Assembly (NCBI GenBank): GCA_001687465.1
Contig: LVLI01000003.1
Location: 62,001 to 91,303 of the forward strand
Source: Halocafeteria seosinensis
Taxonomy: Eukaryota
Reading direction: 5' to 3'
Length of the DNA: 29,303 nucleotides
Shown: positions 5,587 to 21,550 of the stretch, piece by piece
Layout: the number at the start of each line of letters is the position of its first letter
Numbering within the stretch: the stretch's first letter is position 1
The notes under the pieces: model-generated
The model's input: the letters and a program-made list of their open reading frames with translations, nothing else
Told to the model about the DNA's origin: nothing
Database searches by the model: none
Program-made: the position numbers and the translations under genes

Positions 5587-6327
5587 TGTGTCTATCTAAA
5601 AAGATAAGGATTTCGGACTCCTTTACCGTGCGAAGCAAAAGTCTAACGATGTCCCGAGGAAAAGCTAGCCAGAAACGCACTTCTGCTAACCCTTTACAAT
5701 CCGTACGACTCTAACTTCTTGGCCCTGGCAAGGAGATTCCTCCCAGGTGCGGAAAACATGTAGGAAGGAAGCGGAACCGAAGTTCCAACTTCCAGGATTG
5801 TATAAGTTGGTGCCTCCTCCGAACCAGTTTGCCTATAGGACCCTACACATAGAAATGTGAATCGTGCGAGAAGGAAGACAGCAGCAGCTAGCTCTGCCGC
5901 AATCATCGGCACTCAGGCAGGAGATTCCTGTCCAGGTGGCTGAGGCCAGCCCAGGTCACGTTTGAAGGATTCCCAGTCCACCGAGAATTCAGACAAGGAC
6001 GCACCACTTTGAAGGGGATACCTTAATGTAACGGAGGCTCTACTACTTCAGCTGTCGCGGCCGTGAGACATTACCTGGTAGTAGACCGAGATACACCGTG
6101 GCCTACCGACTACGAGAACTACCAAGGGTAGTTACGGACCCTCACGCTCCCGATTGCCCTTCACAATTGCTCAACGCTAGCATCTGGCATGATTGGAAGG
6201 CTAACCGAGAACTTAGAGGAAGCTTGGTGCAGCCTGAACTTTCCCGCCGGAATTCCTGTCGATTCCTAACGATAGATTCCGCATCGGTGGATCCTTTAGC
6301 GCAACATACCATGACGTTAGCTCTGTA

Positions 6328-6359
6328 TACCATAGGATGCAGAAATAAGGGCCGATTCT
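6328..6359 (+). repeat. Left TIR of the pogo-like transposon
   Basis: Reverse complement of 8166-8197 at 31 of 32 positions. The core AAGGGCCGATTCT is repeated subterminally at 6399-6411. Confidence 0.92.
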
Positions 6360-6584
6360 CTCGTAACTTGAAGTTGCAAATTTTCAGATGTCAATTTAAA
6401 GGGCCGATTCTACAAAACGGTCATATTTGGATTATTTGAGGGTGTTTGATGGATTGTAAACCATCAAGATATAAAGAAAATACATTTGCATTGTACTATA
6501 TTTCTCTTACATGGATTATATTTCCATAGGAGTGGAGAAAATGGATGGGACAGTCTCGTGGCTCGACTGCGCGCCAAAAATTGG

Positions 6585-6875
6585 CTAAAAAGCACTAACG
6601 TGGTCCTCCTGGAGAGATGACGCATGCTTCCAGGTGTTTTCAGTGTATGTATAACCTTTCCACTTGACAAGAAGGTGCTGTTCTTCTTTGTCTTTCTGCA
6701 AGAAGCTCTCCACATCAAACTGGCTAGGTGGTAAGTCATGCGCACATGGATCCGAATCCGACTGTTCCTCTTGGTCAATGGCCTCTTGCAGCTGCTTTAC
6801 AAGAAAGGATTTTCGGAACCCTAGCACCGGTAAACCCCTTGCTTTGTACATTAGCTCTAACTCAGAACGGGTCAT
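6585..6875 (-). pseudogene. SAP-like domain plus chromodomain fragment inside the transposon
   Basis: MTRSELELMYKARGLPVLGFRKSFLVKQLQ fits the SAP consensus (LtvaELkelLkarGLpvsGkKaeLverL). FDVESFL...LLVKWKGYTYTENTW fits the chromodomain consensus with F/W/Y cage residues. Confidence 0.75.
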
Positions 6876-6899
6876 GCAAGAGGATCTCCCAGTATGACC

Positions 6900-8105
6900 G
6901 CTTGACCTGGAAGAAGTCGGGCGGCCAAATGCTTCGATTCTTCAATGGCTGCGCAATGCTCCGATGGTCCGCGCTGTTGGTACGTATTATATTCCCAGTC
7001 TTTGTGTAAAATCCATGTTTCAAATGTGGGAAGCAATTTGCCGCAGACTGTTCGATCCCGAAAGTGATGGTACGCGACGAAATTCGCTAAGGGCAGAATT
7101 GCTTTGTTTAGCAAGTTTTCCAGAATGCAATTGCGCCCCATCCGTTCGCTTAGATACAGCTCTCTTGCAGCTCCCCCGAAGCCGGCCTCATCTGCGTCGT
7201 CTTGAGATTGTCTGCAGGATATCAGTTCTTAACTTGTCCGCTACAACACCGAACACGCTCAAATCGCAAGGCTGCAGTTTGCAGGTTATACGGGCCGGAA
7301 TGTAGCTCAACCCAATCAGTGGATACTTAACTGATTGTGGATACTTTCCTTGCGGAATGACTTTCTGGTGTGCACGGGTGGAGCGCCTTTTGGCAATCCG
7401 GGAATAATGGCAGGAGTCTGACCACATGCTCATTCAATTTGGCCACGATTTACTCTTCAGACATCCAGTGGTCGATATTACTCTCATTTATGTATGCATG
7501 AAGTATTCGTATTTCGCCGAATAGCCGTGCCATGCGGCCTTATTGGGACGAAACGGAGATAGTTTGTTTTGGTGGGAACAACAACATGGGTCAACAGCAG
7601 TTCTCCACACGCATTCACCACGGGAGTCATGGTGGTCTGTCTTTTCTCGCTTGACGCAAGAAAGGAAGCAGGTTCAGTTCCCGCATAAATCGTCGTCTTC
7701 TACTTGCACCCGCTGCGGAGTAGAATTCTACATTCTTTCGTCCCTGGTACAAGTAGGTAAGAAGCGGCAATCTACACTCCAGGGTTATTATGGTTACTGA
7801 GGATGAATGTGATAGGTTCTCGTGCGTCAGAGCTGCCTACGACTCCTGGAAGGCGTGTGAGATGTGTGACTAAAGCTCGGCAGTCGAACTTCACAGTGTA
7901 CATTTTTCCGCAACGGGTTCGCGAACGTTCTGGACGTTCGCAACTTCAACCATCCCAAGGGGGAGGCAAAGGGGACACACAAAATGACCCCTGGCCACTT
8001 TTTCAGCCCTCTTGAGACCAAGAAATCGGGCAATATCTTTATAACCAGAAATGCTTTGAAAGCAAAAATTTGACAGAGTACATAAAATATGATTGCCTTC
8101 CTCAT
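6900..8105 (-). pseudogene. Frameshifted pogo/CENP-B-type (DDE_1) transposase
   Basis: Motifs in the expected order but in different frames with stops: PFASPLGWLK (HTH, cf. FxaSxGW), EKRQTTMTPVVNACGELL (about 7650-7590), HWMSEE (about 7470) and YIPARITCKLQPCDLSVFG (cf. lPpntTsklQPlD). Confidence 0.8.
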
Positions 8106-8165
8106 GGTATTGCTCTCTATCCAATTGAAGACCTGAATAAAGGCGGCAATAATAAGGGCACATTT

Positions 8166-8197
8166 AGAATCGGCCCTTATTTCTGCATCCTAGGGTA
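8166..8197 (-). repeat. Right TIR of the pogo-like transposon
   Basis: AGAATCGGCCCTTATTTCTGCATCCTAGGGTA, an inverted copy of 6328-6359. Confidence 0.92.
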
Positions 8198-8608
8198 TAT
8201 AACCAAGAGGCAGAAGCGAAACCAGTTGAATTCTTTTGGAACAAGAATATGAACACCAAACCCAAATTTAAGGTTGGGACAAATGTAAGAATTAGCAGAG
8301 TTAAAGGGAAGTTTGAGAAAGAAGTAAGTCAAAATTGGAGTGAAGAGATTTTTCGAATAAGTGAAGTAAAAAAGACAGATCCACCCACGTATAAAATTCA
8401 GGATATAGAAACAGGTGAAGAAATCGAAGGTATTTTCTATGAACCGGAGCTTCAGGCGACTCGAGTAGATCCACAACAATACTTAGTTGAAAAAGTTATT
8501 AAAACAAGAAAAAGAAAGGGACAACCGAAAGAAGTATTGGTCAAATGGTTGGGATTTCCGGACTCAAGAAATACCTGGATTCCAGCTAGCGAAGTTAAAG
8601 ACATTTAG
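8198..8608 (+). pseudogene. C-terminal fragment of a Polinton/Maverick-type rve integrase (SH3-like region plus chromodomain)
   Basis: PKFKVGTNVRIS...FEKEVSQNWSEEIFRI...PPTYKIQD..GEEIEGIFYEPELQ followed by YLVEKVIK...VLVKWLGFPDSRNTWIP is the typical Polinton integrase tail. The frame is open back to the transposon junction (8198 YNQEAEAKPVEFFWNKN). No DDE core is present. Confidence 0.85.
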
Positions 8609-8630
8609 AAGAATAAAAAAAACACTATGG

Positions 8631-8675
8631 TTCTTTTTGACTCTACTTTTTCTTGGAAAGAAAAAGAGAATATTT
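8631..8675 (+). terminator. Intergenic hairpin repeat B, copy 1
   Basis: TTCTTTTTGACTCTACTTTTTCT-tggaa-AGAAAAAGAGAA downstream of the integrase stop. Near-identical to 11574-11618 apart from the loop. The terminator role is inferred. Confidence 0.6.
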
Positions 8676-8695
8676 CTTAGAATAGTATATAGAAA

Positions 8696-9472
8696 ATGGA
8701 AGATGAAAAAGATAACCTACATATTGGAATAGAACCAGGTGTTTACAAAATGATCATTTCGGTTGAAGAATTGCGAGAAGTCAAATATTTTTTGAATAAA
8801 GGAGCTGACAAAGAATTGGTTATTATTCAAAGTGTATTAAACGGAGACTTAGAAATATTTAGGTATTGTATTGAACAAGGAGCAACAATAAGCTTTATAT
8901 TTCCGTTTTTGTATGCGAAAGCTATAGAAGAGAAACAAAAAGATATTTTAAGGGAACTTTTTGAGTATCATTGTCCAAAGTATAAACAAAAAGATTTTTT
9001 ACTTGATGCACTTCACGGAGCGATTGAAAACTGCTTTAAAGAAGGTGTTAAGTATTTAATTGAAAAAGGGGCTTCTGTTCCAAATATCAGTGGCAGGAAA
9101 ATCACAAATTATATTAAAAAAGAAAGAGATGATTTCTTTGATTATGTTGAAATTTTTAGTTATCTGTTTTCTGCTGGTTTAGAACTAACTAAGCTTAAGA
9201 AAAAGCAAAAATTGATTTTCTTCTCTGGCTTAGTTGATTTAAGTTGGCAGAAGCATAATCACAAAAGATTTTTAGAGAATCGAGGTTTTGAAATTATAAA
9301 CAACTTTTTCTATCAAACATATCCACATTTGAAAAACAGTGACGAAAATTGTATGATTTGTTTTGATAATGAAGTTAATAGGAAAACTTTAAATTGTCAT
9401 CACACACATGTTATATGCATAAATTGCCTAAATCATATGACAGCTTGTCCACTAGATGGGATACTCATATAA
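8696..9472 (+). CDS. Ankyrin-like repeat protein with C-terminal RING finger (putative E3 ligase)
   Basis: Ankyrin-like segments VLNGDLEIFRYCIEQGA and LHGAIENCFKEGVKYLIEKGASV. RING pattern CMIC-x11-CHHTHVICINC-x6-CPLD. Confidence 0.8.
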   Translation: MEDEKDNLHIGIEPGVYKMIISVEELREVKYFLNKGADKELVIIQSVLNGDLEIFRYCIEQGATISFIFPFLYAKAIEEKQKDILRELFEYHCPKYKQKDFLLDALHGAIENCFKEGVKYLIEKGASVPNISGRKITNYIKKERDDFFDYVEIFSYLFSAGLELTKLKKKQKLIFFSGLVDLSWQKHNHKRFLENRGFEIINNFFYQTYPHLKNSDENCMICFDNEVNRKTLNCHHTHVICINCLNHMTACPLDGILI

Positions 9473-9477
9473 CATAC

Positions 9478-9550
9478 TTTTTAATCTCGACGAACGTTAG
9501 TTCTAGAGATAAGAAAATTTCTTAAACCAAAGGTTTGGCGAAAGTTTTAC
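9478..9550 (+). repeat. Multi-hairpin repeat A, copy 1
   Basis: TTTTAATCTCGACGAACGTTAGTTCTAGAGATAAGAAAATTTCTTAAACCAAAGGTTTGGCGAAAGTTTTAC, just after the ankyrin-RING stop. Other copies at 10272-10331 (+) and 11486-11556 (-). Confidence 0.9.
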
Positions 9551-9562
9551 CTAATTGTTATA

Positions 9563-10276
9563 ATGAAATTAGGTAAAAAATTAGGTTCAGCTTTTAAATT
9601 GGGCGTGAATTTTAGCGACCCCATTGGAAACCAAAGAATAGGAAGAAACATAAGTGAACTATTTAGCTTTGATAGAGGAAACGTTGACGAATTAAATACA
9701 AATGAAAAGCTAAGTGTGTTAATGAGCTCACAAGCTTATAAAAAAGTTCAAGACCGTGAAAATGTAAGTGACTTTAGATATATAGAGCAACTAAGCAACC
9801 AATTTACAGCAGTCTATTTTAAAGCTGAAACAAATACTTTATTTATTGCTTTCAAAGGTACAAGCACAATTGGCGACGTTTTTACAGATATTGAGTTTGC
9901 AAGTGGTGCAGAAAATATAAGTGTTAGTTTTAATAATGCTCTGGCAACTTTTGACGCTGTTGTTCAAAATATTCGACCTTCAAAAGTTTATCTATGTGGG
10001 CATTCTCTTGGTGGTGGATTTAGTTTATTTGTAAACATGCGTAGGGAAGATATTAGCCACACTTATGCAATAAATCCAGCTTTTAACCTTACAAATATAG
10101 CACAATCGCTTAAAAATTCACAAATCAAAAGCGTAACAATTTTAAAAACCCCAGATGATGCAGTGAGTTTTTTAAGTTTATTTTCTCGTTTCAATGTTAA
10201 AACTATCCCAGTACCTGAGCCAAATATTATTGGAAATCATCAATTAGGAACTTTTATGGATTTGGCGAATATTTAA
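9563..10276 (+). CDS. Class 3 lipase / alpha-beta hydrolase
   Basis: IAFKGTS..DVFTD oxyanion/lid motif, nucleophile elbow GHSLGG, candidate Asp (PDDAVS) and His (GNHQL). Confidence 0.9.
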   Translation: MKLGKKLGSAFKLGVNFSDPIGNQRIGRNISELFSFDRGNVDELNTNEKLSVLMSSQAYKKVQDRENVSDFRYIEQLSNQFTAVYFKAETNTLFIAFKGTSTIGDVFTDIEFASGAENISVSFNNALATFDAVVQNIRPSKVYLCGHSLGGGFSLFVNMRREDISHTYAINPAFNLTNIAQSLKNSQIKSVTILKTPDDAVSFLSLFSRFNVKTIPVPEPNIIGNHQLGTFMDLANI

Positions 10277-10331
10277 TCTCGTCGAACTTTAGTTCTAGAG
10301 ATAAGAAAATTTCGTTTTAGCGAAAGTTTTA
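10272..10331 (+). repeat. Multi-hairpin repeat A, copy 2 (third hairpin partly deleted)
   Basis: TTTAATCTCGTCGAACTTTAGTTCTAGAGATAAGAAAATTTC...GCGAAAGTTTTA. It supplies the lipase TAA stop and lies between convergent genes. Confidence 0.9.
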
Positions 10332-10366
10332 AGTAGTTTGGTTTTGAAATTACTTAAAATGATAAA

Positions 10367-11203
10367 TTAAAGACCTTTAAACAATTTTTTAAGTTGATTA
10401 TTTTGGGGTTCTGGTTGAGGATTTGCAGAAGCTGGAGTTGTTCCAATATTTGAAGTTGGTCTTCGTCTTGAATTTCGACTTGGCTGTTTCATTTCAGAGT
10501 AACCAAAACGACTAAATGGGTCACTTGGATTTGTGCTTAATGGTCTTGGATTTTCTGGAATTGTTTGAGAATATGGATTATATGGCTCATTAGTTGGTCT
10601 TTGTGGTTGTGGAATGGGATATGGTTGCGGTTGTGGTTGAGTATAATCATATAAATTTCCTTGTGGTTCTGGGTAATATTGTGGTGTTGCTGTTGGTTGC
10701 AATTGTGGTTCATATCTTGCTCCATATAACTGATTGGGATCAACGTAATTTATTGAACTTTGGTTTTGATTTGGATTTTGATAATACGGAGAATTTGCGT
10801 AACATGCTGGGTGTGTCATTTGTGGGTTATATGTTTGATTATTTTGCTGTTGTTGTTTCTGTTGTCTTCTTTCTTCTGCTTTTTTTCGTCTTCCTTCTTT
10901 CATTCTTTCAATTGCTCTTTCTCTTGCTGGTGTCATTTTCCTTTTATATTGTTTCCCATTCTCTTTTGGTTTCTCTTCTTCTGCTGGTTTTTGTGGTTGT
11001 TGCTGTGGTTGATTTTGTTGAATCATTAACCTTTGTAATTGTTGAGGAGTTAAACTTATTTTATTAGAAGTTTGGCTTGATGTTTCTGGTTGTGATACTT
11101 GTTTGGTTTCCTCATTTTCCTCACTACGTCCTTCTTGCTGTGCTAACATTCGGTTTATAGTCTCTACGTCTAATTCTACGTTTTCATCGTTTTCGTTACT
11201 CAT
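10367..11203 (-). CDS. Viral Q/P/N-rich low-complexity protein with a basic coiled segment
   Basis: 278-aa ORF with TATATA upstream. Acidic N-terminus, basic helix KRKMTPARERAIERMKEGRRKKAEERR, and a P/Q/Y-rich disordered tail. Confidence 0.75.
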   Translation of the reverse strand: MSNENDENVELDVETINRMLAQQEGRSEENEETKQVSQPETSSQTSNKISLTPQQLQRLMIQQNQPQQQPQKPAEEEKPKENGKQYKRKMTPARERAIERMKEGRRKKAEERRQQKQQQQNNQTYNPQMTHPACYANSPYYQNPNQNQSSINYVDPNQLYGARYEPQLQPTATPQYYPEPQGNLYDYTQPQPQPYPIPQPQRPTNEPYNPYSQTIPENPRPLSTNPSDPFSRFGYSEMKQPSRNSRRRPTSNIGTTPASANPQPEPQNNQLKKLFKGL

Positions 11204-11274
11204 CGTTATACTATATATGTAAATTTTAATTCTATAACGTATTACGTAAAATGTAATTTTTTGTTATAAATATA

Positions 11275-11466
11275 ATGAATAGTGAACAAGAGACCCAAGA
11301 AAAAGAGAAACCTTCACCAATCACTTACGAAGAGTTACTTCAAAAATATCCACCTGAATATTTGGACCAAATTGAGGGTTTGCAACCAGTTCCAGAAGTT
11401 ACAAATGAGGAGATTAATAAAATGCTTAAAAATTACGAAACTCAAAAGAAACTGGGTAATATATAA
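11275..11466 (+). CDS. Small acidic viral hypothetical protein (63 aa)
   Basis: ATG preceded by TGTTATAAATATA. The stop is followed directly by a hairpin (11468-11488). Confidence 0.6.
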   Translation: MNSEQETQEKEKPSPITYEELLQKYPPEYLDQIEGLQPVPEVTNEEINKMLKNYETQKKLGNI

Positions 11467-11485
11467 ATACCTTTTTCCCAAAAAA

Positions 11486-11556
11486 GTAAAACTTTCGCTA
11501 AACCNAAGGTTTAAGAAATTTTCTTATCTCTAGAACAAAGTTCGTCGAGATTAAAA
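11486..11556 (-). repeat. Multi-hairpin repeat A, copy 3 (inverted)
   Basis: The reverse complement matches copy 1 except in two loops and one stem base. Confidence 0.9.
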
Positions 11557-11573
11557 TCAAAAAACTATAACGC

Positions 11574-11618
11574 TTCTTTTTGACTCTACTTTTTCTACGC
11601 AAGAAAAAGAGAAAATTT
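11574..11618 (+). repeat. Intergenic hairpin repeat B, copy 2
   Basis: TTCTTTTTGACTCTACTTTTTCT-acgca-AGAAAAAGAGAA, just upstream of the MCP start region. Confidence 0.85.
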
Positions 11619-11644
11619 AATTTATATATAATATATATATAATA

Positions 11645-13084
11645 ATGTCAAGTTTAGATCAACAGCCACTATCAAATGTTGGACAAGCTCAACCACAAGG
11701 AGAATCTCAAGGCTTACAACCTGAACCACCTCAAAGAAGTGGATTAAATAGGAGAGATGTGCACTTTGATCCCAAATTGCAAAGCTCAAATTTTAAAACA
11801 CTTGAAAACTTAAGTTCTCGGCAGTCTGTTCGCATAAATCCAGAAGCCGGATTGGGTGACTATAATCCTGGTTCAACTGTAGAGTGGACAATTCAAAACA
11901 CTTCAGCTCTCTCGGATACTCAAAACAGTCATTTAGAATTTGATTTTGTTAATTCTAACCCTGGTGACAATATTCCATCGGATGGTTTAGATGTTTTACT
12001 TGATAATTTAGAACTTCAAATTGGTGACCAAACAATTGAAAAAGTTTCAGATGGAGCAAGATATTACCAAATGTTATTGAGATCAACCGCACACCAAAGC
12101 TATTACGATAATGAAGCAAATGCACTCATGAAATCTTGGAAATATTTGAGTTATCATAAAAAATATAATGTTGTTCATCCTGCTAATAGTTATGATGATA
12201 GCAGTGATGATAATAACACTAACATCATGACCGCTTATTATTCAGCTAATGGAACTATAAAATGTATTATACATTTGGATAACTTAAGTTTTTTCCGTCA
12301 AGCAAGGTTTAAACCAATGTTCACAGCTATTAAACTCAGTTGGAAATTGCCGGAAGCTCAAAAAGTAATGGAAAGAAGACGTGATAATAATGCCCAAAAT
12401 GCTCCTTCATATACCGTTAGAAATCCAGTTTATATAAGTTCCCAAGTTTATCCAGATGCTTCATTATTGGAAAGTCTTCATTCTCAAATTTTTGAAAATC
12501 AACAAGGGTTAGCAATGGCACTACCCGGAGTTGTGGAAACTTATCGAAGAAGTTTGTCGCAATCTACACAAAATAATATTACTATTCCGGCATCTTTCTC
12601 AGATATTGAAAGTATTATATGTTTACCTGTTAGAAGAGCAACTTCAAGTACAACAGATGATATAAATGTAGGTACGTTTAGAACAGGTAATAATGTCACA
12701 CTTAAAAATTTTGGTGTTAATATTCAAACCGAAGATTTAGCAATGAAAGGAGGTTATAGAAACATGGAAGAAGCTTATAGAGGTTTAAGACAAACTTTTA
12801 ATTTCTTGGGAGATGTTGGCGGAAATGGTATGATTGATTGGGATACATTCAACGCAACACTTGGAAATGGTGGCTTTGCGCCTTTGGCAGTCAATACAAG
12901 TTTGTTAATGCATGCACCTCCCGAAGTTTTATCAAATGGACTGAGTACGCAAGATATGGGTAGTCAAATTAATATAAATCTTGAAACTGAAAATAATATT
13001 GGTGGTAATATGGATTTGCTTGTTTTTGTTTTGCATAAACGTATTTTGATGATGCAACAAGGTATTATTAAGATTGGTATTTAA
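11645..13084 (+). CDS. Major capsid protein, double jelly-roll (Polinton/PLV type)
   Basis: 479 aa, beta-rich. The N-terminal VRINPE..DYNPGSTVEWTIQ..LSDTQNSHLEFDF and LLDNLELQIGDQTIEKV, and the C-terminal LLVFVLHKRILMM, follow the Polinton/PLV MCP pattern. Clustered with ATPase and mCP. Confidence 0.85.
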   Translation: MSSLDQQPLSNVGQAQPQGESQGLQPEPPQRSGLNRRDVHFDPKLQSSNFKTLENLSSRQSVRINPEAGLGDYNPGSTVEWTIQNTSALSDTQNSHLEFDFVNSNPGDNIPSDGLDVLLDNLELQIGDQTIEKVSDGARYYQMLLRSTAHQSYYDNEANALMKSWKYLSYHKKYNVVHPANSYDDSSDDNNTNIMTAYYSANGTIKCIIHLDNLSFFRQARFKPMFTAIKLSWKLPEAQKVMERRRDNNAQNAPSYTVRNPVYISSQVYPDASLLESLHSQIFENQQGLAMALPGVVETYRRSLSQSTQNNITIPASFSDIESIICLPVRRATSSTTDDINVGTFRTGNNVTLKNFGVNIQTEDLAMKGGYRNMEEAYRGLRQTFNFLGDVGGNGMIDWDTFNATLGNGGFAPLAVNTSLLMHAPPEVLSNGLSTQDMGSQININLETENNIGGNMDLLVFVLHKRILMMQQGIIKIGI

Positions 13085-13123
13085 AATGTTAAGAAAATTT
13101 TGAACTATGATATATAGATCAAA

Positions 13124-14194
13124 ATGACACATTTCTTTAAACATAATCGTGGAACATTTGACATAAAAGGTTTTCATAAAAGTGACAATTTTGAGACTGT
13201 TGATGAGTCTCTTGCCACAGTTAATCAATCAAAAAGAGGTGGAAGAACTATTTTAGAACCTTTTTATAAAGAACGTCAAAACGGTTATGAATTTTGTGGG
13301 CAAGAAGGCTTACAACCAAGAAAAGAATTTATTCAACCACTAGAACAATCTAATTTTGTAACTCCTCCTTTAGAGTATCAAACACGATTGAGAGCTGGTA
13401 GAAATATACCAAAATGGTATGGACATTTTCAAGGTCCTGGAATTCCTGAGCCTGAAGTTCCTATCGGCAATAAATACTTTAAAAATTATCAGCAAGACGT
13501 TCCGCTTAGTGATTTGGCTCGCGATTTCTTTCGTACTGGCATAGGTGCTTTAAATAATACTCCTCCTATGCGAGATAGACAAAGTTTAATAAACTTTTTG
13601 CAACAATCTGGTTTATTTAGAGAAGAAGACGAAAATAAAAGTCTGGCTTCACTTGCTCAAAAAATACAAGAACAGAGCGGACGAGCTGGAGCACCTGAAA
13701 ACCCTTTTAATAATGATCCTGTTTTTAGTCAAATTTTGCAACGTATTCGCAGTAATCCACAAGTTACCAATTTAACACCTCAACAACTTCAACATCGTCA
13801 GGCAGTTGCCCAACAAAATCAAGCAAATCAAGAATTTCAACAAGGAGCACAACAGCAACAAACTCAACAACAAACTCAGCAACCGGCGAGAGGTTTTAAT
13901 TTTGATTCTGATCCTTCTAGCTCATCATTTCCAGCACCTAATTCTGGTGCACAGCCTCAAGAACAAGTAGCTCCAGAATCTAATCAAAGTATAGAACGAG
14001 CACCACGATTTGGGAGAACTGAAAACGGACGCCAAGAAGTTATTACCACTCTTAATGGTCGTGAAGTTAGAGGCTGGGTCGGTGATAGAGGTGGTATATA
14101 CTCCAATGCGACAAGTCGAAATACAATACCACCAGTTTCAGCACATAGGCGAGCTATTAAAAACGCTTTTGAACGATTAAGACAAAATGGTTAA
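13124..14194 (+). CDS. Viral hypothetical protein with a Q-rich linker and basic C-terminal domain
   Basis: 356-aa intact ORF between MCP and ATPase. The C-terminal NGREVRGWVGDRGGIY resembles GxRGGxY-type basic adaptor motifs. Confidence 0.75.
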   Translation: MTHFFKHNRGTFDIKGFHKSDNFETVDESLATVNQSKRGGRTILEPFYKERQNGYEFCGQEGLQPRKEFIQPLEQSNFVTPPLEYQTRLRAGRNIPKWYGHFQGPGIPEPEVPIGNKYFKNYQQDVPLSDLARDFFRTGIGALNNTPPMRDRQSLINFLQQSGLFREEDENKSLASLAQKIQEQSGRAGAPENPFNNDPVFSQILQRIRSNPQVTNLTPQQLQHRQAVAQQNQANQEFQQGAQQQQTQQQTQQPARGFNFDSDPSSSSFPAPNSGAQPQEQVAPESNQSIERAPRFGRTENGRQEVITTLNGREVRGWVGDRGGIYSNATSRNTIPPVSAHRRAIKNAFERLRQNG

Positions 14195-14215
14195 AAATTT
14201 ATCTACATTATATAA

Positions 14216-15199
14216 ATGCCGAATTGGATTTCGATCTTATCGAATAAAAAAAAGAAAGAAAATAGTTTTCGTTATGTTGTTGTTGGTGGTACTCGATCCG
14301 GAAAATCCACACTTTTACATAATTTAATCTTTAAATTACATAAATCAGAAATTAAACGCGTAGTTTTATTTGGTGGTAAATCTGCTTCAAATGAGGAAAT
14401 GAAAGATATCTTTAAAAAGGAAAAACCTCCTTTTGATTTGGAAATACATAAAAATTATAATGATGAAAAAGTTGGAGAAATTTTTAAACAAATTGAAACA
14501 GACAAAACAAAAAGAAGTGGAAAACAAACAGTTTTTATATTCGAAGATTTAATGGCAGAAAACGCCAGCAACAAAACTAAAAATAATAATATCGATCGTG
14601 TAATTAAGAACGGAGGTGAGTTAAATATTTCTTCGATTATAACAACCCAAAAATATACTGACGTTAAAACATCAACTAGAAGCGGAAATATTAGCAAACT
14701 TTTTTTATTTGAGATCCCTGATAATGAAATTACTCTCGTTCATCGAGAACAAAACTTAAAAATTGGGAAAGATGATTTTAAAAAAATAGCTAGCGAAGCA
14801 ACCGAAACAAAATACGAGTTCATTATAATAGATCAAAAAGCTGAAATCAATGAAAAACTGAAAGATAGCGACTTTAACGTTATCAAACCCGAAGAAAAAG
14901 AAGATAAAAAAGAAGATGAAGCCGAAGTTTTAAAAGGAAAATCAGCAAAAAAGGCAAAACCCACAAAAGTTAATTTGGTTAAATTTCTAAAACCTGGTAA
15001 AGATGACAATGAAGCAAAGTTTTACGCTATCTTTCAAGTAGGAAAGGAAATTAAAAAAGTCCCAGTGGGTGACAATGTGAAAGGTAATGGAAATGTGTCA
15101 GATCCTACAAACCCAGAAGTTTTAGTTAAAGAACTGCTAAACAGAAATAAACCTTTTAAAGAAAATTTGAAACAGTTTCGAGAAAAATTTAATGTCTAA
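14216..15199 (+). CDS. A32-like (FtsK-HerA) genome packaging ATPase
   Basis: Walker A GGTRSGKST, Walker B VFIFED, ISSIITTQKY (conserved Q), downstream R..N (TRSGN) and YEFIIID. Confidence 0.88.
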   Translation: MPNWISILSNKKKKENSFRYVVVGGTRSGKSTLLHNLIFKLHKSEIKRVVLFGGKSASNEEMKDIFKKEKPPFDLEIHKNYNDEKVGEIFKQIETDKTKRSGKQTVFIFEDLMAENASNKTKNNNIDRVIKNGGELNISSIITTQKYTDVKTSTRSGNISKLFLFEIPDNEITLVHREQNLKIGKDDFKKIASEATETKYEFIIIDQKAEINEKLKDSDFNVIKPEEKEDKKEDEAEVLKGKSAKKAKPTKVNLVKFLKPGKDDNEAKFYAIFQVGKEIKKVPVGDNVKGNGNVSDPTNPEVLVKELLNRNKPFKENLKQFREKFNV

Positions 15200-15200
15200 A

Positions 15201-15226
15201 TTTTACTTTTTACCAAAAAAGTAAAA
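15201..15226. terminator. Perfect hairpin between the convergent ATPase and mCP genes
   Basis: TTTTACTTTTT-acca-AAAAAGTAAAA, an 11-bp stem filling most of the 33-bp gap between two stop codons. Confidence 0.65.
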
Positions 15227-15232
15227 AACTAT

Positions 15233-16048
15233 TTAACTTCTTGGTATGAAGAAGTACTCAAATTCGAGCACCACATTACCCCCATTTAACTCCATTTGAT
15301 TATACTCCTCATCAATTATAGCGAAATCAATAACTTCTAAATCATCATTCACTATACTAGAAAATGTTTGTTCGTCGCTATATTCGCGAACTAATTCATC
15401 ACCAAAAGAAACATCATTAAAAATCGAAGCTATAATAGGCTGGTTTCTACTCTTAACTAATTTATAATTTTGTGTGTCTCCAAGTGTGTTTGATATTATA
15501 TGATACACAGCAGTATTTAATAATTTGGGTAATCCAGCAACATCAAATGTTTCACCTCCTGAAATTTTATGTTGGGTGCTGTCTCTTATAATCCCAATTT
15601 TATGATGTGCCGAGTTTTCTAAAGTTACCGTTTGAAATATAGGATTTAAAAAGGTGTTAATAATATAAAAAGGCTCACTATCAGCATTTGTAAAACTAAA
15701 CCTTTGTTTAGATTCATTAAAAACAGCAGTTATATTATGTCCCCTATTAGCAAAAAAATTATTCATAAAGTCTTCTAGTTCTGTCCCATCTTGATAAACT
15801 CGATCAGTATCAAATTTTAATTCTGTTAAATTTGGACCACTATCCAATTCCCTAACATAATATAAAACATTGTTGTATTCTGAAAATGTATAGGCAGTAT
15901 TTGGCAGAGCTACTTTTTTAAGTCCTATTTTTACATTTGATTTTAAAGAACTAATAGCCTCCTTCAGATAAACACTGAAATCCGAATTTGAGTCATTTGT
16001 TTGTCTATCTATTCTTGAGTTTATTGTTAATCTAAATTTATTTGACAT
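15233..16048 (-). CDS. Minor capsid (penton) protein, single jelly-roll
   Basis: N-terminal LTINSRIDR...SDFSVYL...IGLKKVALPNTAY and C-terminal IDFAIIDEEYNQMELNGGNVVLEFE match the PLV/NCLDV penton consensus. 271 aa. Confidence 0.88.
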   Translation of the reverse strand: MSNKFRLTINSRIDRQTNDSNSDFSVYLKEAISSLKSNVKIGLKKVALPNTAYTFSEYNNVLYYVRELDSGPNLTELKFDTDRVYQDGTELEDFMNNFFANRGHNITAVFNESKQRFSFTNADSEPFYIINTFLNPIFQTVTLENSAHHKIGIIRDSTQHKISGGETFDVAGLPKLLNTAVYHIISNTLGDTQNYKLVKSRNQPIIASIFNDVSFGDELVREYSDEQTFSSIVNDDLEVIDFAIIDEEYNQMELNGGNVVLEFEYFFIPRS

Positions 16049-16059
16049 CTATATATTTA

Positions 16060-16716
16060 TTATAAATTTTCTGGTATATAGTTCCATCCTATTTTTTCAC
16101 ATATTAATTTCCACATATAATTAGCATTCTGCAAACCCTTCATATTTACATAACAATGTTTTACATTAAGGTACTTTATTACCCATTTTTCTTCTATTAA
16201 TTCTAAAAGTTTCCTTAAAATAAAATTATAATTTGGTAAGTTGTACCTTTCGTTCGGTCTGGCGTATGTCCAATTTATTTCTATTCTCTTGAACATTCTC
16301 AATAATTTATCTTCTATATGTTTACTTATCGGTTCTGGTCTATATCCTGTTAATTTATAATAAATAACTGAAATATGTGGATAATACATTGTTTTTCGTT
16401 TACTTTTTAAGTATTTATAAATTGTTTCATGCTTATAATTTAAATTTCTCTCTTGATGATATTTTTCAATTTCATTCATTAATCTCCTTGTNATTTGTCT
16501 GGTTTCAATTCCTTGCATTGATAAAATTATTCTATGGAAATTATGGGTTTGAATGCTGTCCACCTTTCTCATATACAATTTGGGTTGTGCCTCTATATAT
16601 TGATCTTCTATAAACGGTCTTTCTTCGCAAATTATTCCACATTTTGAATTGGTGCAACTATATGAACTTTCATCATTCAAAGCTAAACTTTTCTTTTTAC
16701 ATTCTGGACATTGCAT
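16060..16716 (-). CDS. VLTF3: VLTF3-like late transcription factor (poxvirus A2L family)
   Basis: N-terminal Zn ribbon (CPEC...CTNSKCG). Motifs HNFHRIILSMQG, YYPHISVIYYKLTG..P, RMFKRIE, RYNLPNYNFILRKL and WKLICEKIGWNYIP occur in VLTF3 order. One N at 16492. Confidence 0.9.
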   Translation of the reverse strand: MQCPECKKKSLALNDESSYSCTNSKCGIICEERPFIEDQYIEAQPKLYMRKVDSIQTHNFHRIILSMQGIETRQXTRRLMNEIEKYHQERNLNYKHETIYKYLKSKRKTMYYPHISVIYYKLTGYRPEPISKHIEDKLLRMFKRIEINWTYARPNERYNLPNYNFILRKLLELIEEKWVIKYLNVKHCYVNMKGLQNANYMWKLICEKIGWNYIPENL

Positions 16717-16759
16717 TATATATAGTTTTAAGAAAAAGATAATTTATATATAGTATATA

Positions 16760-16870
16760 ATGAAAGTTGGCAAAAATCCGCAAGACATCCAAAAAGCTGG
16801 TGAAAAAGCTAAAAGAATGCTTCGTTTAGGTGAATCCGCTCTAGAAGCTTTTCAAAGACTGAAATCTTAA
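16760..16870 (+). CDS. Small basic peptide (36 aa)
   Basis: MKVGKNPQDIQKAGEKAKRMLRLGESALEAFQRLKS, with TATATA immediately before the ATG. Below the ORF-track cutoff. Confidence 0.45.
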   Translation: MKVGKNPQDIQKAGEKAKRMLRLGESALEAFQRLKS

Positions 16871-16894
16871 TATGGAACTGGTTAACGTTCTATA

Positions 16895-17047
16895 TTAATC
16901 TTGTTCTTTATGCTCTTGTTCTTGTTCGCTATTTCCTATATGCATTCGACAATCACTATTAAACATATTATCCTTTAGCAACTTAGATAAAAAACCAAAT
17001 ACTAAACCACCTATAGCACTTAATGTAGGTACTAAAGCATCAACCAT
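16895..17047 (-). CDS. Small putative membrane protein (50 aa)
   Basis: MVDALVPTLSAIGGLVFGFLSKLLKDNMFNSDCRMHIGNSEQEQEHKEQD. N-terminal hydrophobic helix, acidic tail, AT-rich TATA-like upstream. Confidence 0.5.
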   Translation of the reverse strand: MVDALVPTLSAIGGLVFGFLSKLLKDNMFNSDCRMHIGNSEQEQEHKEQD

Positions 17048-17136
17048 TTCTATAATATATTACAACAATTAGTTCATTTATATTAAACTTCTTGACACTA
17101 ACTAATAAAATTTAATGCACTAATATATAAAAGAAT

Positions 17137-19877
17137 ATGTCGTACATATCAACAACCAAATCAAACAATGTTAGTGTAGGAGAAGGCTTAAAAAAAGATG
17201 GGGCGAAAATTACTTTTGATAATGAATTGTTGTTCACCAAAACAGAAGTTCTACAAAAAATTGACGAACACGCTACCCAAGACGCTGATTTAAATAATTA
17301 TTATACCAAAACCGAGGTTGACAACGAATTCACCAACTTTAATAATAATATCAATACACTTTTAGATAATGAGTATTACGACCAATCACATATTGATACA
17401 AATTTTTATACGAGTGCTCAAGTGGATACTAAATTAAACGATGAGTATTACGACAAATCACACATTGACGCAAATCATCTTACAACATCAAAAACAGTAG
17501 ATACTATTAACGCTAACTTAGAGGATTATTATGATAAGGCCGAAATAGACACAAATTTTTATAATAAAATAGAAGTTGATGATAAATTAGACCTAGCAAA
17601 ATTTCAGTTCACTAGTTATGAAATAGAGGATATTCGAGATTTTTGGGCTTTTAATGATACATTCACAGAAGACTACGAAATCAATAGTGAGGTTACTGGT
17701 GGAAATCTCCTTAAAATAAAGAGTGGTTCACTCAATGTTGGAACAATAGCAAACCAGTTAAGAGCTTATTATTCATTTGATGATGTTAATAATCCTTTTG
17801 AAGATAGTATAGGTTCTTTTAACGGTACTAATAACGGTGGAGTTATTACAAGCAATGCAAAGATAGATAAAGGTGTTTCATTTAGTAATGGTGATACATT
17901 TATTAACGTTGGTTCAGTTCTAGGTTATACTACGGAAGATTTTACAGTTGCGTGTTGGTTTTATCCTACAACTGATAGTGATAATCAAATGTTATATAAT
18001 GTTGGTAGCTCATCACAAGATGCTCAAAGTCATCTAATATACAATTTTTCACCAAATAAAATATCTTTTAGAGATGTTAATAATAATAATCAAATTGATT
18101 CAGTTACTGATATTTCATTAAATCAGTGGTATTATATTACAGTAACGAGAGTAGGAACTAGCCTTAATATATATATTAATGGTCAATTAGATAATACTGG
18201 TACGGTTACTAGTGGTACATTATCAGACCCTTCAAACAATAGTACAATCTCTAGAGGAGCTACTGGTATACTTAATGATGGTCGTATTGATGAATTTGGT
18301 ATTTTTGTTTAGAGAGCTATCAGATAGTGAAATTGATTTTTTATATAATAGCGGAAACGGTGGAAATATAAGTGAAATTGTTGGTGATTTTTTACAAAGT
18401 ACTGAAGGACTACGGGTTAATGCTTTTCATCAAGTTGAGGACGTTTATTTAGAAGATGTGGATAAAACCCAAAACACTATTCAATAATATTTCCTATTTA
18501 ATGTGGATTGGTGACAGTGCTGAAACAGCTATTTCAAATAAGCAATTGTTTATCAGTTATGATAAAACAGATGATTCTATCCGAATAACCGGAAATAATG
18601 CAACAACAGCTACTAAAGAATTAACTTTAGATACTTGGGCTCACTTAGCCTTAGTAGTTGACAAAGCAAACGATAATGTTAAACTCTATGTTGATTCTGT
18701 TGAAACATTACAAATTAATGGTTTAGAAGCTTCAATCGGAACAACTCTAAGGTTAGGTGGTGGTTATTTAGATGGGAGCGGAAATCCAGTTGGAACATCT
18801 GAAACGGTCTTTGATAAAGTTTTATTCTTCACTCGTCCTTTGAAAGAGTTTGATATAAAGAATTTGTATCAAGTAAGAGGTCAATTTAATTTAAACCAAA
18901 TACCAACCGCTCATTTTTATTATAAAAATGATGTTGATTCTAATTTTCTTAAGACAGATGGAACTAATAATATGACTAATAATTTGGACCTATCAAATAA
19001 TAAAATTGTTAACTTAAATCCCCCAACAAATCCAAAAGACGCAACTAATTTAAGTTATCTTGAACAAAATTATTATAATAAAAATACAGCCGATTTTTTA
19101 TATCTTTTTAGGGATGGAGGCAATTCAATGGAGGGTGATTTAACTTTTGCTAATGGTGCTAGTATAACTTTAAATGATACTGATATGGATGCGGTAAACA
19201 ATAAAATAATTAATGTTAATGACCCAACTTTTGATAGGGATGTGGTTAATTTACAATTTGCGAATAGTAATTATTTAAGTCTTGACGGTTCTAATTCTAT
19301 GACATCAAATATAGATGCAGGTAATAATAAACTTATTAATGTAAATGATCCCACTAGTAATAAGGATGCTGTTAATTTACAATATTTTAATTCAAATCAA
19401 ACTGGATCTTTACCCAAGGTTTATAAATTTACACAATCGAGCACGCCAACAATTAGCAATGGAAGTACTGAAACATTACAAAAAATTAGTGCCGGTTTAC
19501 CATTGAATTATTATTATTGTCATGTAGAACTAATAATATCAGTTGATGAAAATGAAACTGGAGTAACTGAGGAATTTACTGCAACATACAGTATAACTGA
19601 TGATGTAGGAACAAATAACGATCCCATTCAATCTTTAGCCCATTGGAATCCGGGTCTTGGTGGTTCAACTGGTGCTTATTCTCAAACGTTTTCTGGTGTA
19701 ACAAATGACCCACAATATAAAAACTTTTATTTTACTTTTGATATAATAACAGATGAAACTGAAAATTTAACATTTACATTTGATGTAACAAATAACTCTG
19801 GTAGTAGTACTGATGTGAATTTTATGCAACATAAAGTTAGAGCACACGCAATAAAAACACCTTCACAATTTCCTTAA
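17137..19877 (+). pseudogene. Fibre/receptor-binding-like protein with two LamG (ConA-like) domains, split by two +1 frameshifts (912 aa if repaired)
   Basis: YYTKTEVD-type repeats, LamG domain 1 (AYYSFD...FTVACWFYP...WYYITVTR...IYINGQL...GRIDEFGIF), LamG domain 2 (MWIKP...WAHLALV...LYVD) and three D.xNNKIxNxNxPT..xDAxNLxY shaft repeats. Removing one base near 18310 and one near 18455 fuses the three ORFs. Confidence 0.8.
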
Positions 19878-19880
19878 TTT

Positions 19881-19907
19881 ATATAATACTAAAAACTAGT
19901 ATTATAT
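19881..19907 (+). terminator. Perfect hairpin after the fibre gene stop
   Basis: ATATAATACTA-aaaac-TAGTATTATAT, an 11-bp stem starting 4 nt after the stop. Confidence 0.6.
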
Positions 19908-20124
19908 TTATTCTTTCAACGTGACAACTTTTGAAATTTCCCATTGAGAAGTGTGTAAGTAATTTCGATGGAAAATTACAAACTTATAGAAGTGTAAAAG
20001 ACGGGTTCAGCCACTGTTAATTAAACAGAAGTTATACACTATAGTTTTTTAAAAAATTTCCCATTGTAAAACCTGTAATGTATTTTTACCCGATGAAGTA
20101 CACTTATGATTATTTACATGTCGC

Positions 20125-20356
20125 TTTACGGTTGCACCTTGACAACGTTCTGGTTTTTAGCGTTGACAATCGTTTACCTCTCTCACTGCTATTTGTCAAC
20201 TCTATCTTCTGTTTTTGTATGGTTACACTTTCTTCTTGACAACACTTTACTTTCTTGCATTGACACCCTTGCAATCTCCCACAATGCTGTTTGTCAACTT
20301 TAACTTCTGTACATGACAGCTTACGGTTACTTCTTGACAACGCTTTGTTTTTATGC
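20125..20356. repeat. Degenerate ~97-bp tandem repeat (about 2.3 units) near the right end of the virus
   Basis: TGACA at 20140/20237/20335 and 20164/20261, TGTCA at 20194/20292 (offsets 97-98). Shared blocks TGCTRTTTGTCAACTYTAWCTTCTGT and TTACGGTT...CTTGACAACG. Confidence 0.75.
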
Positions 20357-21550
20357 TAATTACCCATGCAATGTTTCAATGGTGTTTGGTGGGCTTGGGC
20401 TTAGCTACAAAGCATTTCGTTAAGGTGTGCCATCCATAGACATTGTACTCTACTTGCCCTATCAAATAATTACCATCTACATGATACGTTGAGGTGTGAA
20501 ACCTTTCGGAATGTGACGCATCAATATTATTGACTGGTTGGTCATGCAAGTACAGTACCGCCGGGGGTATTTACGCTTTGGTTCCTTCGCTTCGTTATTG
20601 CCTGAGACTTGCTAACCCACACACACACTGCTACACAACTTTACCGGTACTTCCTCTACCAAGGAAAAACGCTACCAACACTTCCACCGTGTATCGACTG
20701 CCGCTGGCACTGCTGTCATCTGGAAGCAGAGCAACGACACCGCATCTATCTGGGGTTCTCCTACCGCTCACTCGGAAGGGAAAACGGAGGAATATGACCG
20801 GTGCCTTACTTCAAGCCGCCCGCTTGTGGGTGTAGAGTGTGGTGCCTCTGTATCTACGCGGTTTAATACTGTCCGGTACAGTTTAGTCATTACATTTTAA
20901 GCTGACAGTTTGATCGCATACAATAACAAAACAAGTTTTTTCTCATCAGACCTTTACGCTTCCGAACTTCACTTCAAGTCGGGAAGCGTCTCCCGCTGGG
21001 GATCGTCGTCCATACGCATTTTATTGCTATTGTAGCATTATATGTACTGTATAATGGTGGCAAACCATTCATATACTATCTGCATGTAGTGTAATACACT
21101 CGTCCTCGATACAGTGTCTAGGGACTTGATCAACAACTACTGTACACTGTAGACAATACGAGCGGTTGATTTAAGTCCCTTTATTTCTGTCGAAGACGCC
21201 ATTGCTTGGGGATGCCTCCTCTTTGGTGCCGCATTGATGAGCATCCCCACGTTTACTTCCTTGAGCTGGCAGCTAATCGTTAAAGCACAAAATTAAATGA
21301 CTGTTTTTACGAAGTTCTGTTTTTGTTTCTAACTCTGACGTCGAAACTTTCTAAGTCAGAGCTTAAGTCGTTGACTCCCCAGGAAGTCGTATCGTTTTAA
21401 ACAAAGTTGTCAATGATGGCAGCCCCAGTGTATACGTATTGTTAGCTAAATAATGATGGCCAAACTGTCTACAAGCTGACCACCAGATCCATGAGAAATT
21501 GGGCGCCGATATAGATTATTACATTATCGAAAGCATTGAAAGAACAGGTC

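What the first reader, a model, noticed from the sequence alone, without database searches (positions are those of the whole stretch)
8198..20360. Integrated Polinton-like virus combining a chromodomain integrase with giant-virus-type expression genes and signals
Seen: a compact AT-rich island with a full morphogenetic module (MCP, penton, A32 ATPase, fibre), a Polinton-type integrase tail, VLTF3, ankyrin-RING, lipase, hairpins at gene ends and a shared upstream motif. Known: rve integrase plus DJR capsid defines Polintons and mavirus-like endogenous viruses, while VLTF3 is a core Nucleocytoviricota gene. Inference: this may be a little-described lineage of endogenous small DNA virus, possibly a virophage-like parasite that uses a giant virus transcription system. 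Most ORFs are intact, suggesting recent integration.
Basis: partly seen in the sequence, partly recalled or inferred. Interest (0 to 1): 0.92.

Follow-up and report, generated by a model that had tools for sequence, protein, structure and literature searches.

The report
Half an endogenous Polinton-like virus
This is the surviving 12-kb half of a small DNA virus in a protist's chromosome, from a capsid family already published from a salt-loving flagellate, and its start and stop signals suggest it would be switched on by an infecting giant virus rather than by the cell.

Summary
The island is real: 12.2 kb at 31% GC in 48%-GC eukaryotic DNA. It holds a double-jelly-roll capsid (Z 28.5 to PBCV-1), an A32 ATPase, VLTF3, lipase, ankyrin-RING, a broken LamG fibre and a likely penton.

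It is not a whole provirus. A 1.9-kb pogo-like transposon cuts the integrase, so only its chromodomain tail remains; no replication gene, left TIR or target duplication is in the window.

It is not an undescribed lineage. Its capsid clade includes, by eye, the published Halocafeteria seosinensis PLV capsid (Bellas 2023). A 2026 preprint describes 41 complete and 12 partial PLVs of that cluster with the same GC contrast, RVE, RING and LamG genes. VLTF3 in polintoviruses and PLVs is also in print.

What remains is the wiring. TATATA lies within 15 nt of the ATG in 9 of 12 genes (0 of 71 internal ATGs), and all 7 strong hairpins sit at gene boundaries. This fits giant-virus late transcription but not CroV's TCTA motif. 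The preprint's main text reports neither signal nor VLTF3 for these PLVs. Helper dependence is inferred, and neither virus junction was confirmed by reads.

The parts
6326..8199 (-). Decayed pogo-like (DDE_1-like) DNA transposon with 34-nt TIRs, TA on both sides and a C-terminal chromodomain; it abuts and truncates the viral integrase
   Evidence: TIRs 97% complementary; DDE_1 E=0.01, below the family cut-off; Chromo 4e-8; stops in all frames; three contigs of run X1 leave into other flanks at 8197
8198..8608 (+). C-terminal remnant (136 codons) of a likely rve integrase, ending in a chromodomain; catalytic core absent
   Evidence: Chromo 4e-11; HP1/Rhino chromodomains 5e-7; likeness of the upstream part to Polinton integrase tails is recalled, not matched
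8612..8675 (+). Hairpin cassette after the integrase stop; a second, 83% identical copy lies upstream of the MCP gene
   Evidence: Family D4; fold z only -0.65; skipped in two variant contigs of X1
8696..9472 (+). Ankyrin-repeat + RING protein, likely an E3 ligase
   Evidence: Ank_2 4.7e-9; zf-C3HC4_3 7.7e-5, below cut-off
9480..9550 (+). ~75-nt multi-hairpin cassette, three copies (also 10272-10331 on +, and about 11480-11556 on -)
   Evidence: 60 invariant columns; z -2.4 and -3.2; replaced by 17 other letters in one X1 contig
9563..10276 (+). Lipase / alpha-beta hydrolase with a GHSLGG motif
   Evidence: Mbeg1-like 1.2e-7, Lipase_3 1e-4
10367..11203 (-). Low-complexity Q/P/N-rich ORF, 278 aa, function unassigned
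   Evidence: No Pfam, NCBIfam or PHROG match
11275..11466 (+). 63-aa ORF with TATA directly before the ATG
   Evidence: no Pfam match
11645..13084 (+). Double-jelly-roll major capsid protein, 479 aa
   Evidence: clade of 7, SH-aLRT 100
13124..14194 (+). 356-aa Q-rich ORF between MCP and ATPase, possibly a core or structural protein (position only)
   Evidence: No family at cut-off
14216..15199 (+). A32-like packaging ATPase
   Evidence: Pox_A32 2.3e-11
15233..16048 (-). Likely penton (minor capsid protein)
   Evidence: Atlas lead; fold not obtained
16060..16716 (-). VLTF3-like late transcription factor with an N-terminal zinc ribbon (one N in the gene)
   Evidence: Pox_VLTF3 1.7e-15, profile positions 11-168 of 168
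16760..17047 (.). Two tiny convergent ORFs (36 aa on +, 50 aa on -) sharing a terminal hairpin
   Evidence: hairpin z -5.0
17137..19877 (+). Fibre/spike gene with two LamG domains and tail-fibre repeats, broken over three frames near 18,300 and 18,440-18,490
   Evidence: Laminin_G_3 7e-18 and 2e-7; PHROG tail fibre 1.5e-8; frames
19880..20388 (.). Non-coding right end: stop-adjacent hairpin, then ~120-nt and ~98-nt imperfect direct repeats, likely the surviving terminal-repeat region; exact terminus unresolved (about 20,390-20,530)
   Evidence: no inverted partner in the window

Best explanation
The island is the right half of an integrated Polinton-like virus of the capsid cluster published from Halocafeteria seosinensis, likely cut on the left by a host pogo-like transposon, and its genes are likely built to be read by the late transcription machinery of a co-infecting giant virus.

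Steps:
1. Shown: DJR capsid, A32 ATPase, fibre, lipase, VLTF3 and ankyrin-RING genes lie in eukaryotic DNA.
2. Inferred: an intact ancestor of about 20-25 kb integrated with an rve-chromodomain integrase.
3. Shown: the transposon end sits on a TA inside the integrase. Inferred: deletion next to it, or recombination between two of its copies, removed the integrase core, the replication gene and the left TIR.
4. Shown: TATA ends 0-7 nt before all 12 start codons, and the strong hairpins sit at gene boundaries. Inferred: these are a late initiator element and hairpin polyadenylation signals for a nucleocytovirus RNA polymerase, as for Sputnik and mavirus.
5. Inferred: VLTF3 would bias or hold the helper's late machinery on these promoters.
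6. Inferred: this copy could not replicate alone and would at most supply capsid-module proteins to intact sister copies.
For: Fold.

Family: the window MCP, P0001, P0003-6 and P0053 form one clade (SH-aLRT 100, quick tree). The published H. seosinensis MCP matches two blocks of alignment A3 by hand count: 13 of 29 and 11 of 19 identities to the window MCP, 19 of 29 and 17 of 19 to P0004.

The preprint's PLVs average 34% GC against 47% host and 23.6 kb, lack a protease, share RVE, RING and LamG clusters with virophages, include 12 partial copies and carry transposon insertions.

Variant copies: run X1 has contigs that differ from the window along the island and four alternative joints.

Signals. 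A pol II TATA box lies 25-30 bp before the start site, whereas the ASFV late TATATA lies at -1 to +5 (PMC5294985). The Megamimivirinae late 3' half-site [AG]TA[TG]A lies within 8 nt of the ATG in 11 of 12 genes. Sputnik carries mimivirus late promoters on 12 genes and hairpin poly(A) signals on 16 (PMC6723459). TATATA occurs twice in 15,228 nt of host flank.
Against: - Family assignment is by eye on one printed sequence cut at 400 residues; there is no score or joint tree.
- No transcript start or end was mapped.
- TATATA is a generic AT-rich word, and 7 of 12 upstream regions also fit the cellular TATAWAW box.
- The full Megamimivirinae motif is not supported (5' half-site at the right spacing in 3 of 11, P=0.16). 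The ASFV upstream TATTT (1 of 12) and CroV TCTA (1 of 12) are not enriched, so no helper family can be named.
- Stems are 11-13 bp with up to one mismatch; the integrase-end cassette is not more stable than shuffles (z -0.65); only 4 of 13 fixed 80-nt gene-end windows reach z below -2.
- No listed contig bridges the transposon-virus junction (32 of 399 pieces shown), and the right junction was not tested.
- X1 may be the window's source, so it is not independent.
- At least one PLV (TsV-N1) is reported to replicate without a helper.
Confidence: 0.68

Rival explanations
1. Autonomous nuclear virus: host RNA polymerase II reads the genes, TATATA is a TBP site, and VLTF3 is the virus's own late switch acting with host factors.
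For: The element encodes VLTF3, which a pure helper-dependent parasite could borrow from the helper. 7 of 12 upstream regions fit TATAWAW. The PLV TsV-N1 is reported as autonomous. Earlier scan notes describe Polintons with their own TBP and TATA-like box (unchecked).
Against: TATA ends 0-7 nt before the ATG in all 12 genes, leaving no room for the usual 25-30 bp to a start site. Hairpin ends match the mimivirus-Sputnik signal. None of 5 host ORF starts examined has TATA in that position.
Confidence: 0.22
2. The truncation is an assembly artefact. A short-read assembly joined host DNA to the middle of a virus copy through a repeated transposon, and the fibre frameshifts are consensus errors among near-identical copies.
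For: The join lies exactly at a multi-copy 1.9-kb repeat, and TA flanks cannot test it. There are two Ns in the island. No listed contig bridges the join. False stops and frameshifts in such elements are documented (PMC10120064), and partial EMALEs at contig ends were put down to incomplete assembly.
Against: The host-transposon join is bridged by one X3 contig (5975-6362, depth 3.4, weak). The fragment lies inside a contig with host DNA on both sides. Real transposon-associated partial PLVs are reported from a long-read assembly.
Confidence: 0.25
3. An undescribed lineage bridging PLVs and Nucleocytoviricota (Mriyavirus-, Zora- or Zephyr-like).
For: VLTF3 is present. The MCP model fits NCLDV capsids better than virophage capsids (Z 28.5 against 20.1 and 18.4). 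4 of 47 aligned relatives hit Capsid_N. There are no close relatives in IMG/VR or JGI scans.
Against: The MCP clade contains a published PLV capsid. No HUH, VLTF2, RuvC or Mriya_48 match was found in the retained half. Mriyaviruses lack integrases. VLTF3 is scattered over several PLV groups.
Confidence: 0.1

Closest known systems
Endogenous PLVs of Halocafeteria seosinensis (MCP cluster MMPC 10 by column count, 70 hits, PMC10120064 Table S4; six subtypes, bioRxiv 10.64898/2026.07.28.741278)
   Same: MCP clade (by eye), low-GC island in a 47-48% GC host, RVE, RING and LamG accessory genes, no protease seen, transposon-associated partial copies.
   Different: The window MCP is only 31-32% identical to P0004/P0005, which the printed representative resembles most, so it is probably another subtype. 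The neighbour is pogo-like, not MULE or LINE. The preprint's main text has 0 hits for VLTF, lipase, ankyrin or chromodomain and reports a promoter motif only for a virophage subclade; its figures and supplements were not visible.
Mavirus/EMALEs and Sputnik (Virophaviricetes)
   Same: Endogenous low-GC lifestyle, rve integrase (mavirus), a short motif just before the ATG and hairpin gene ends as signs of helper transcription.
   Different: MCP structurally further (Z 18-20); CroV TCTA motif in 1 of 12 genes; no protease in the retained half.
Zephyrvirus VC123/VC126 and Zoravirus PLVs (bioRxiv 10.64898/2026.06.19.733378)
   Same: NCLDV-like capsid module; VLTF3 in about 30% and lipase in about 50% of Zephyr VC123/126; RVE in 57% of Zora.
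   Different: Zephyr has no endogenous examples and a very large lipase ORF; Zora carries Mriya48 and often HUH, neither seen here. Not compared by profile.
Mavericks/Polintons and adintoviruses (Polintoviricetes)
   Same: Integrase with C-terminal chromodomain (PMC8502044); VLTF3 in some coral polintoviruses; lipase.
   Different: pPolB and protease not present in the retained half; protist host; different MCP cluster.
Mriyaviricetes (PMC11253617)
   Same: VLTF3, DJR MCP, A32 ATPase.
   Different: 35-45 kb, with HUH, VLTF2 and RuvC and without integrase.

Membership tests
Polinton-like viruses (broad) | Double-jelly-roll MCP | tested here: met
   pLDDT 83.4; Z 28.5, rmsd 2.9, 357 aligned
Polinton-like viruses (broad) | A32-like packaging ATPase | tested here: met
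   Pox_A32 44.1 bits, cut-off 22.8
Polinton-like viruses (broad) | Single-jelly-roll penton | tested here: inconclusive
   Atlas lead 0.98; model pLDDT 33; no PDB sequence hit
Polinton-like viruses (broad) | 15-45 kb genome between TIRs with a target-site duplication | tested here: inconclusive
   Only 12.2 kb and one end are present; no inverted partner; one chance-level 5-mer TSD match among 48 tried
H. seosinensis-type PLV cluster | MCP in the stand-alone cluster | tested here: met
   By-eye motif match of the printed representative to alignment A3; no score computed
H. seosinensis-type PLV cluster | GC near 34% in a 47-48% host | tested here: met
   0.315 against 0.48; paper values
H. seosinensis-type PLV cluster | RVE integrase and a replication gene near one end | tested here: inconclusive
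   Only a chromodomain tail at the cut end
H. seosinensis-type PLV cluster | No maturation protease | tested here: inconclusive
   None among the ORFs scanned, but about half of the genome is missing
Virophaviricetes | Virophage-type MCP | tested here: not met
   Sputnik Z 20.1 and mavirus 18.4 against PBCV-1 28.5; the published cluster is counted apart from the virophage clusters
Virophaviricetes | Replication depends on a giant virus | not testable with these tools
   Only signal-level support
Polintoviricetes (Mavericks) | pPolB + RVE + cysteine protease | tested here: inconclusive
   None of the three catalytic domains is in the retained half
Polintoviricetes (Mavericks) | Group 1/2 or Gossevirus MCP | not tested
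   The published profiles were not available to the tools
Mriyaviricetes | VLTF3 | tested here: met
Mriyaviricetes | No integration gene | tested here: not met
   A likely integrase tail is present and the element is chromosomal; absence in mriyaviruses
Mriyaviricetes | HUH endonuclease, VLTF2, RuvC | tested here: inconclusive
   No match in the retained ORFs; half is missing

The most novel reading that the evidence does not exclude
This PLV family is a set of virophage-like parasites wired to a still unisolated giant virus that is not CroV-like. Its promoters use a TATATA late initiator and its genes end in mimivirus-style hairpins. It brings its own VLTF3 to capture or jam the helper's late transcription, so PLVs and TCTA-type virophages in one host genome would guard against two different giant viruses.
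Probability: 0.35. Interest if true: 0.65.

Novelty: new member of a known kind. Interest (0 to 1): 0.36.

Why it matters
How most PLVs replicate is an open question; the 2026 preprint on this family says so and found no helper virus. A near-uniform start motif plus stop-adjacent hairpins is a testable fingerprint of the missing helper. A parasite-encoded VLTF3 would be a direct way to study what this conserved giant-virus factor does. As a lineage the element is not new, and this copy is a cripple.

Tried and rejected
- No own genome is held, so sister copies, TIRs and TSDs could not be searched.
- Locus searches found no relative in any of 12 scans: 8 of viral contigs, 2 of metagenome contigs (31, 91) and 2 of genome contigs (93, 95). 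Gene content of relatives is therefore unknown; these pattern scans are insensitive.
- Word-index searches: MCP 1 hit, ATPase 0 (33), VLTF3 0 (56), so there is no ATPase or VLTF3 tree.
- 20 of the 49 MCP relatives were looked up (P0001 separately); none carried an informative name.
- The MCP tree is the quick search, holds no named references, and left out 3 of 47 rows under 300 aa (P0053 added).
- The penton model failed and was not fold-searched. PDB sequence searches for MCP, penton and ATPase gave nothing.
- No RNA holder was listed. X2-X4 show spliced joints and cover host genes and the transposon, but have no contigs on 8453-11590; this blank is not used as evidence on expression.
- Exact MCP motifs were absent from the PMC10120064 supplements; the family match came only from reading the Halocafeteria rows.
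- The top three BFVD matches are unnamed and were not found in papers.
- Promoter models rejected or unsupported: CroV TCTA 1 of 12, mimivirus early AAAATTGA 0 of 12 (both copies lie inside genes), poxvirus TAAAT 2 of 12, ASFV TATTT 1 of 12, full Megamimivirinae late motif.
- Rfam: 0 matches. The island shows no strong CpG depletion (o/e 0.76 against 0.86-0.90).
- A Polinton-like AGTAG end read on the minus strand near 20454 was seen by eye; it has no matching TSD and is not adopted.
Full report
1. WHAT IS IN THE SEQUENCE. GC drops from about 0.48 to about 0.31 between 8.2 and 20.4 kb; the island is 12,158 nt, GC 0.315, 90% coding. The flanks are eukaryotic: a mitochondrial carrier gene and GT-AG introns of about 60-250 nt shown by joints in runs X2-X4. 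Pfam finds a chromodomain, ankyrin + RING, lipase, Pox_A32 and two LamG domains, and Pox_VLTF3 at 1.7e-15. PHROG tail-fibre families hit the fibre. The 479-aa ORF has no Pfam match.

2. THE CAPSID. A profile of the ORF and its one close hit found 49 proteins at E up to 0.001 among 1.84 billion. With 47 rows AlphaFold2 gave pLDDT 83.4. Foldseek and VIA-align return only DJR capsids at the top: PBCV-1 Z 28.5 (rmsd 2.9, 357 aligned), faustovirus 26.9, ASFV 24.4, Sputnik 20.1, mavirus 18.4. The MCP call is confirmed. The window protein and six metagenomic proteins (26-43% identity) form one branch with SH-aLRT 100 in a quick tree of 45 rows without named references. The penton remains a lead; its model failed.

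3. IT IS HALF AN ELEMENT. The left edge coincides with the right arm of a 34-nt inverted repeat pair, 6326-6359 and 8166-8199. Between the arms lies a decayed transposase with a weak DDE_1 match and a chromodomain, flanked by TA. The integrase frame starts at that TA and holds only the last 136 codons. No catalytic core, polymerase, helicase or protease was found. The right end is a non-coding repeat array reaching about 20,388, with no inverted partner and no convincing TSD. The fibre is split over three frames; such breaks are often consensus errors in multicopy elements (PMC10120064). Run X1 has no spliced joints and so looks like DNA. It covers the island with many short contigs that differ from the window and shows four alternative joints there, which points to divergent sister copies; it may be the window's source, and its depth is not a copy number. 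One low-depth X3 contig bridges host and transposon. No listed piece bridges transposon and virus (32 of 399 shown), and the right junction was not tested.

4. THE SIGNALS ARE REAL. TATATA lies within 15 nt of the ATG in 9 of 12 genes (shuffle mean 0.81; 0 of 71 internal Met), and TATA in 12 of 12, ending 0-7 nt before the ATG. All 7 hairpins with stems of 11 or more lie in gene-boundary zones (shuffle mean 0.25), and there are none in 10,241 coding nt or in the host flanks. Six of the seven lie within about 20 nt of a stop codon. Five of seven folded boundary stretches have z from -2.4 to -5.0, and two do not. The geometry fits a viral late initiator (ASFV TATATA at -1 to +5; pol II TATA box at -25 to -30). 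TATATA is also used as the late motif for pacmanvirus and its transpoviron. The 3' half of the Megamimivirinae late consensus is present in 11 of 12 genes but its 5' half is not enriched, and TCTA, TATTT and TAAAT are at chance level. So the signals say 'giant-virus late type' without naming a family.

5. IT IS A DESCRIBED FAMILY. A paper search turned up bioRxiv 10.64898/2026.07.28.741278. It reports 41 complete and 12 partial PLVs in Halocafeteria seosinensis, GC 34% against 47%, mean 23.6 kb, no protease, a stand-alone MCP cluster with six subtypes, shared RVE, RING and LamG clusters, frequent transposon insertions and very low expression. Table S3 of PMC10120064 prints one MCP of this cluster. 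By hand it shares 13 of 29 and 11 of 19 residues with two blocks of the window MCP and 19 of 29 and 17 of 19 with P0004 (alignment A3), so it falls inside the seven-row clade. Table S4 gives 70 hits for that cluster, apart from 74 virophage hits. The host here may be that species or another host of the family; this was not established, and the copy may be one of the catalogued partial elements. VLTF3 in small integrating viruses is in print: coral polintoviruses, MELD viruses, Tetraselmis PLVs and Zephyrvirus clusters. Chromodomain integrases are too.

6. WHAT IS LEFT. The preprint's main text has no occurrence of VLTF, lipase, ankyrin or chromodomain, and its promoter result concerns a virophage subclade with CroV-late-like motifs. 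Its figures and supplements (genome maps, Fig. S7, Tables S4 and S6) could not be seen and may already show these features. Searches for 'Halocafeteria' + 'Polinton-like' gave only these two papers. 'Polinton-like virus' + 'hairpin rule' gave two general papers, and PLV + asfarvirus + virophage + promoter + TATA gave one; these were seen as listings.

7. MECHANISM. Best reading: a helper-dependent PLV whose intact copies would be transcribed by a giant-virus late machinery, package DNA with A32 into DJR capsids with a LamG fibre, and reintegrate through rve-chromo. VLTF3 would tune the helper's late factor set, and ankyrin-RING would act on host or helper proteins. This copy lost its left half at a transposon. 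Identity and anatomy are shown; helper dependence and the role of VLTF3 are inferred.

8. PAPERS, AS SEEN. 10.64898/2026.07.28.741278: parts 1-4 of 5 and a term search, no figures or supplements. 10.64898/2026.06.19.733378: parts 1-4 of 5. PMC10120064: parts 1-3 of 7; supplement 2 parts 1, 27 and 28, and two searches. 10.64898/2026.10.13.758929: passages and part 2. PMC5974111: abstract. Passages only: PMC11788076, PMC11253617, PMC13215967, 10.1101/2023.10.06.561300, PMC8502044, 10.1101/2025.10.09.676808, PMC8547959, PMC6723459, PMC5294985, PMC11464507. Recalled, from no call: the Polinton-like look of the integrase tail, AG...CT Polinton ends, the pogo label, and the Crinkler-like look of a host ORF.

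9. VERDICT. A real but truncated member of a known PLV family, with statistically solid giant-virus-type signals that make the open helper question testable. Interest 0.36.

Noticed in passing
window 8612-8675, 9480-9550, 10272-10331, about 11480-11556: Two 60-75-nt hairpin cassettes recur after stop codons, and variant contigs of run X1 lack or replace them (joints 8609/8610 to 8669, 9465 to 9534, 11296 to 8616). They may be small mobile or recombining terminator modules that differ between virus copies.
   Followed up: partly
window 6326-8199: The pogo-like transposon encodes its decayed transposase-chromodomain on the minus strand, yet runs X2-X4 show two GT-AG introns read on the plus strand (6729-6791, 6978-7046), i.e. 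a spliced antisense transcript in some copy.
   Followed up: no
window 6585-6875 and 8198-8608: Both the transposon and the viral integrase end in a chromodomain, so both might target the same chromatin, which could explain why one landed in the other.
   Followed up: no
window 26544-28859 (-): Intact intronless 771-aa host ORF with a C-terminal helix-hairpin-helix (HHH_3 E=0.003); its layout recalls Crinkler-like nuclease proteins (recalled, not tested).
   Followed up: partly
window 4232-5586 (-): Intron-containing mitochondrial carrier gene (Mito_carr 2e-25), probably the phosphate carrier; runs X1-X4 carry a 6-nt insertion near its end relative to the window.
   Followed up: no
P0071 (distant MCP relative): A distant capsid relative is filed under a Candidatus Saccharibacteria genome, probably a mis-binned PLV contig; it was not found in genome contigs.
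   Followed up: partly
window 14861-15199: The ATPase has a ~110-aa basic C-terminal extension beyond the A32 domain with no family match.
   Followed up: partly
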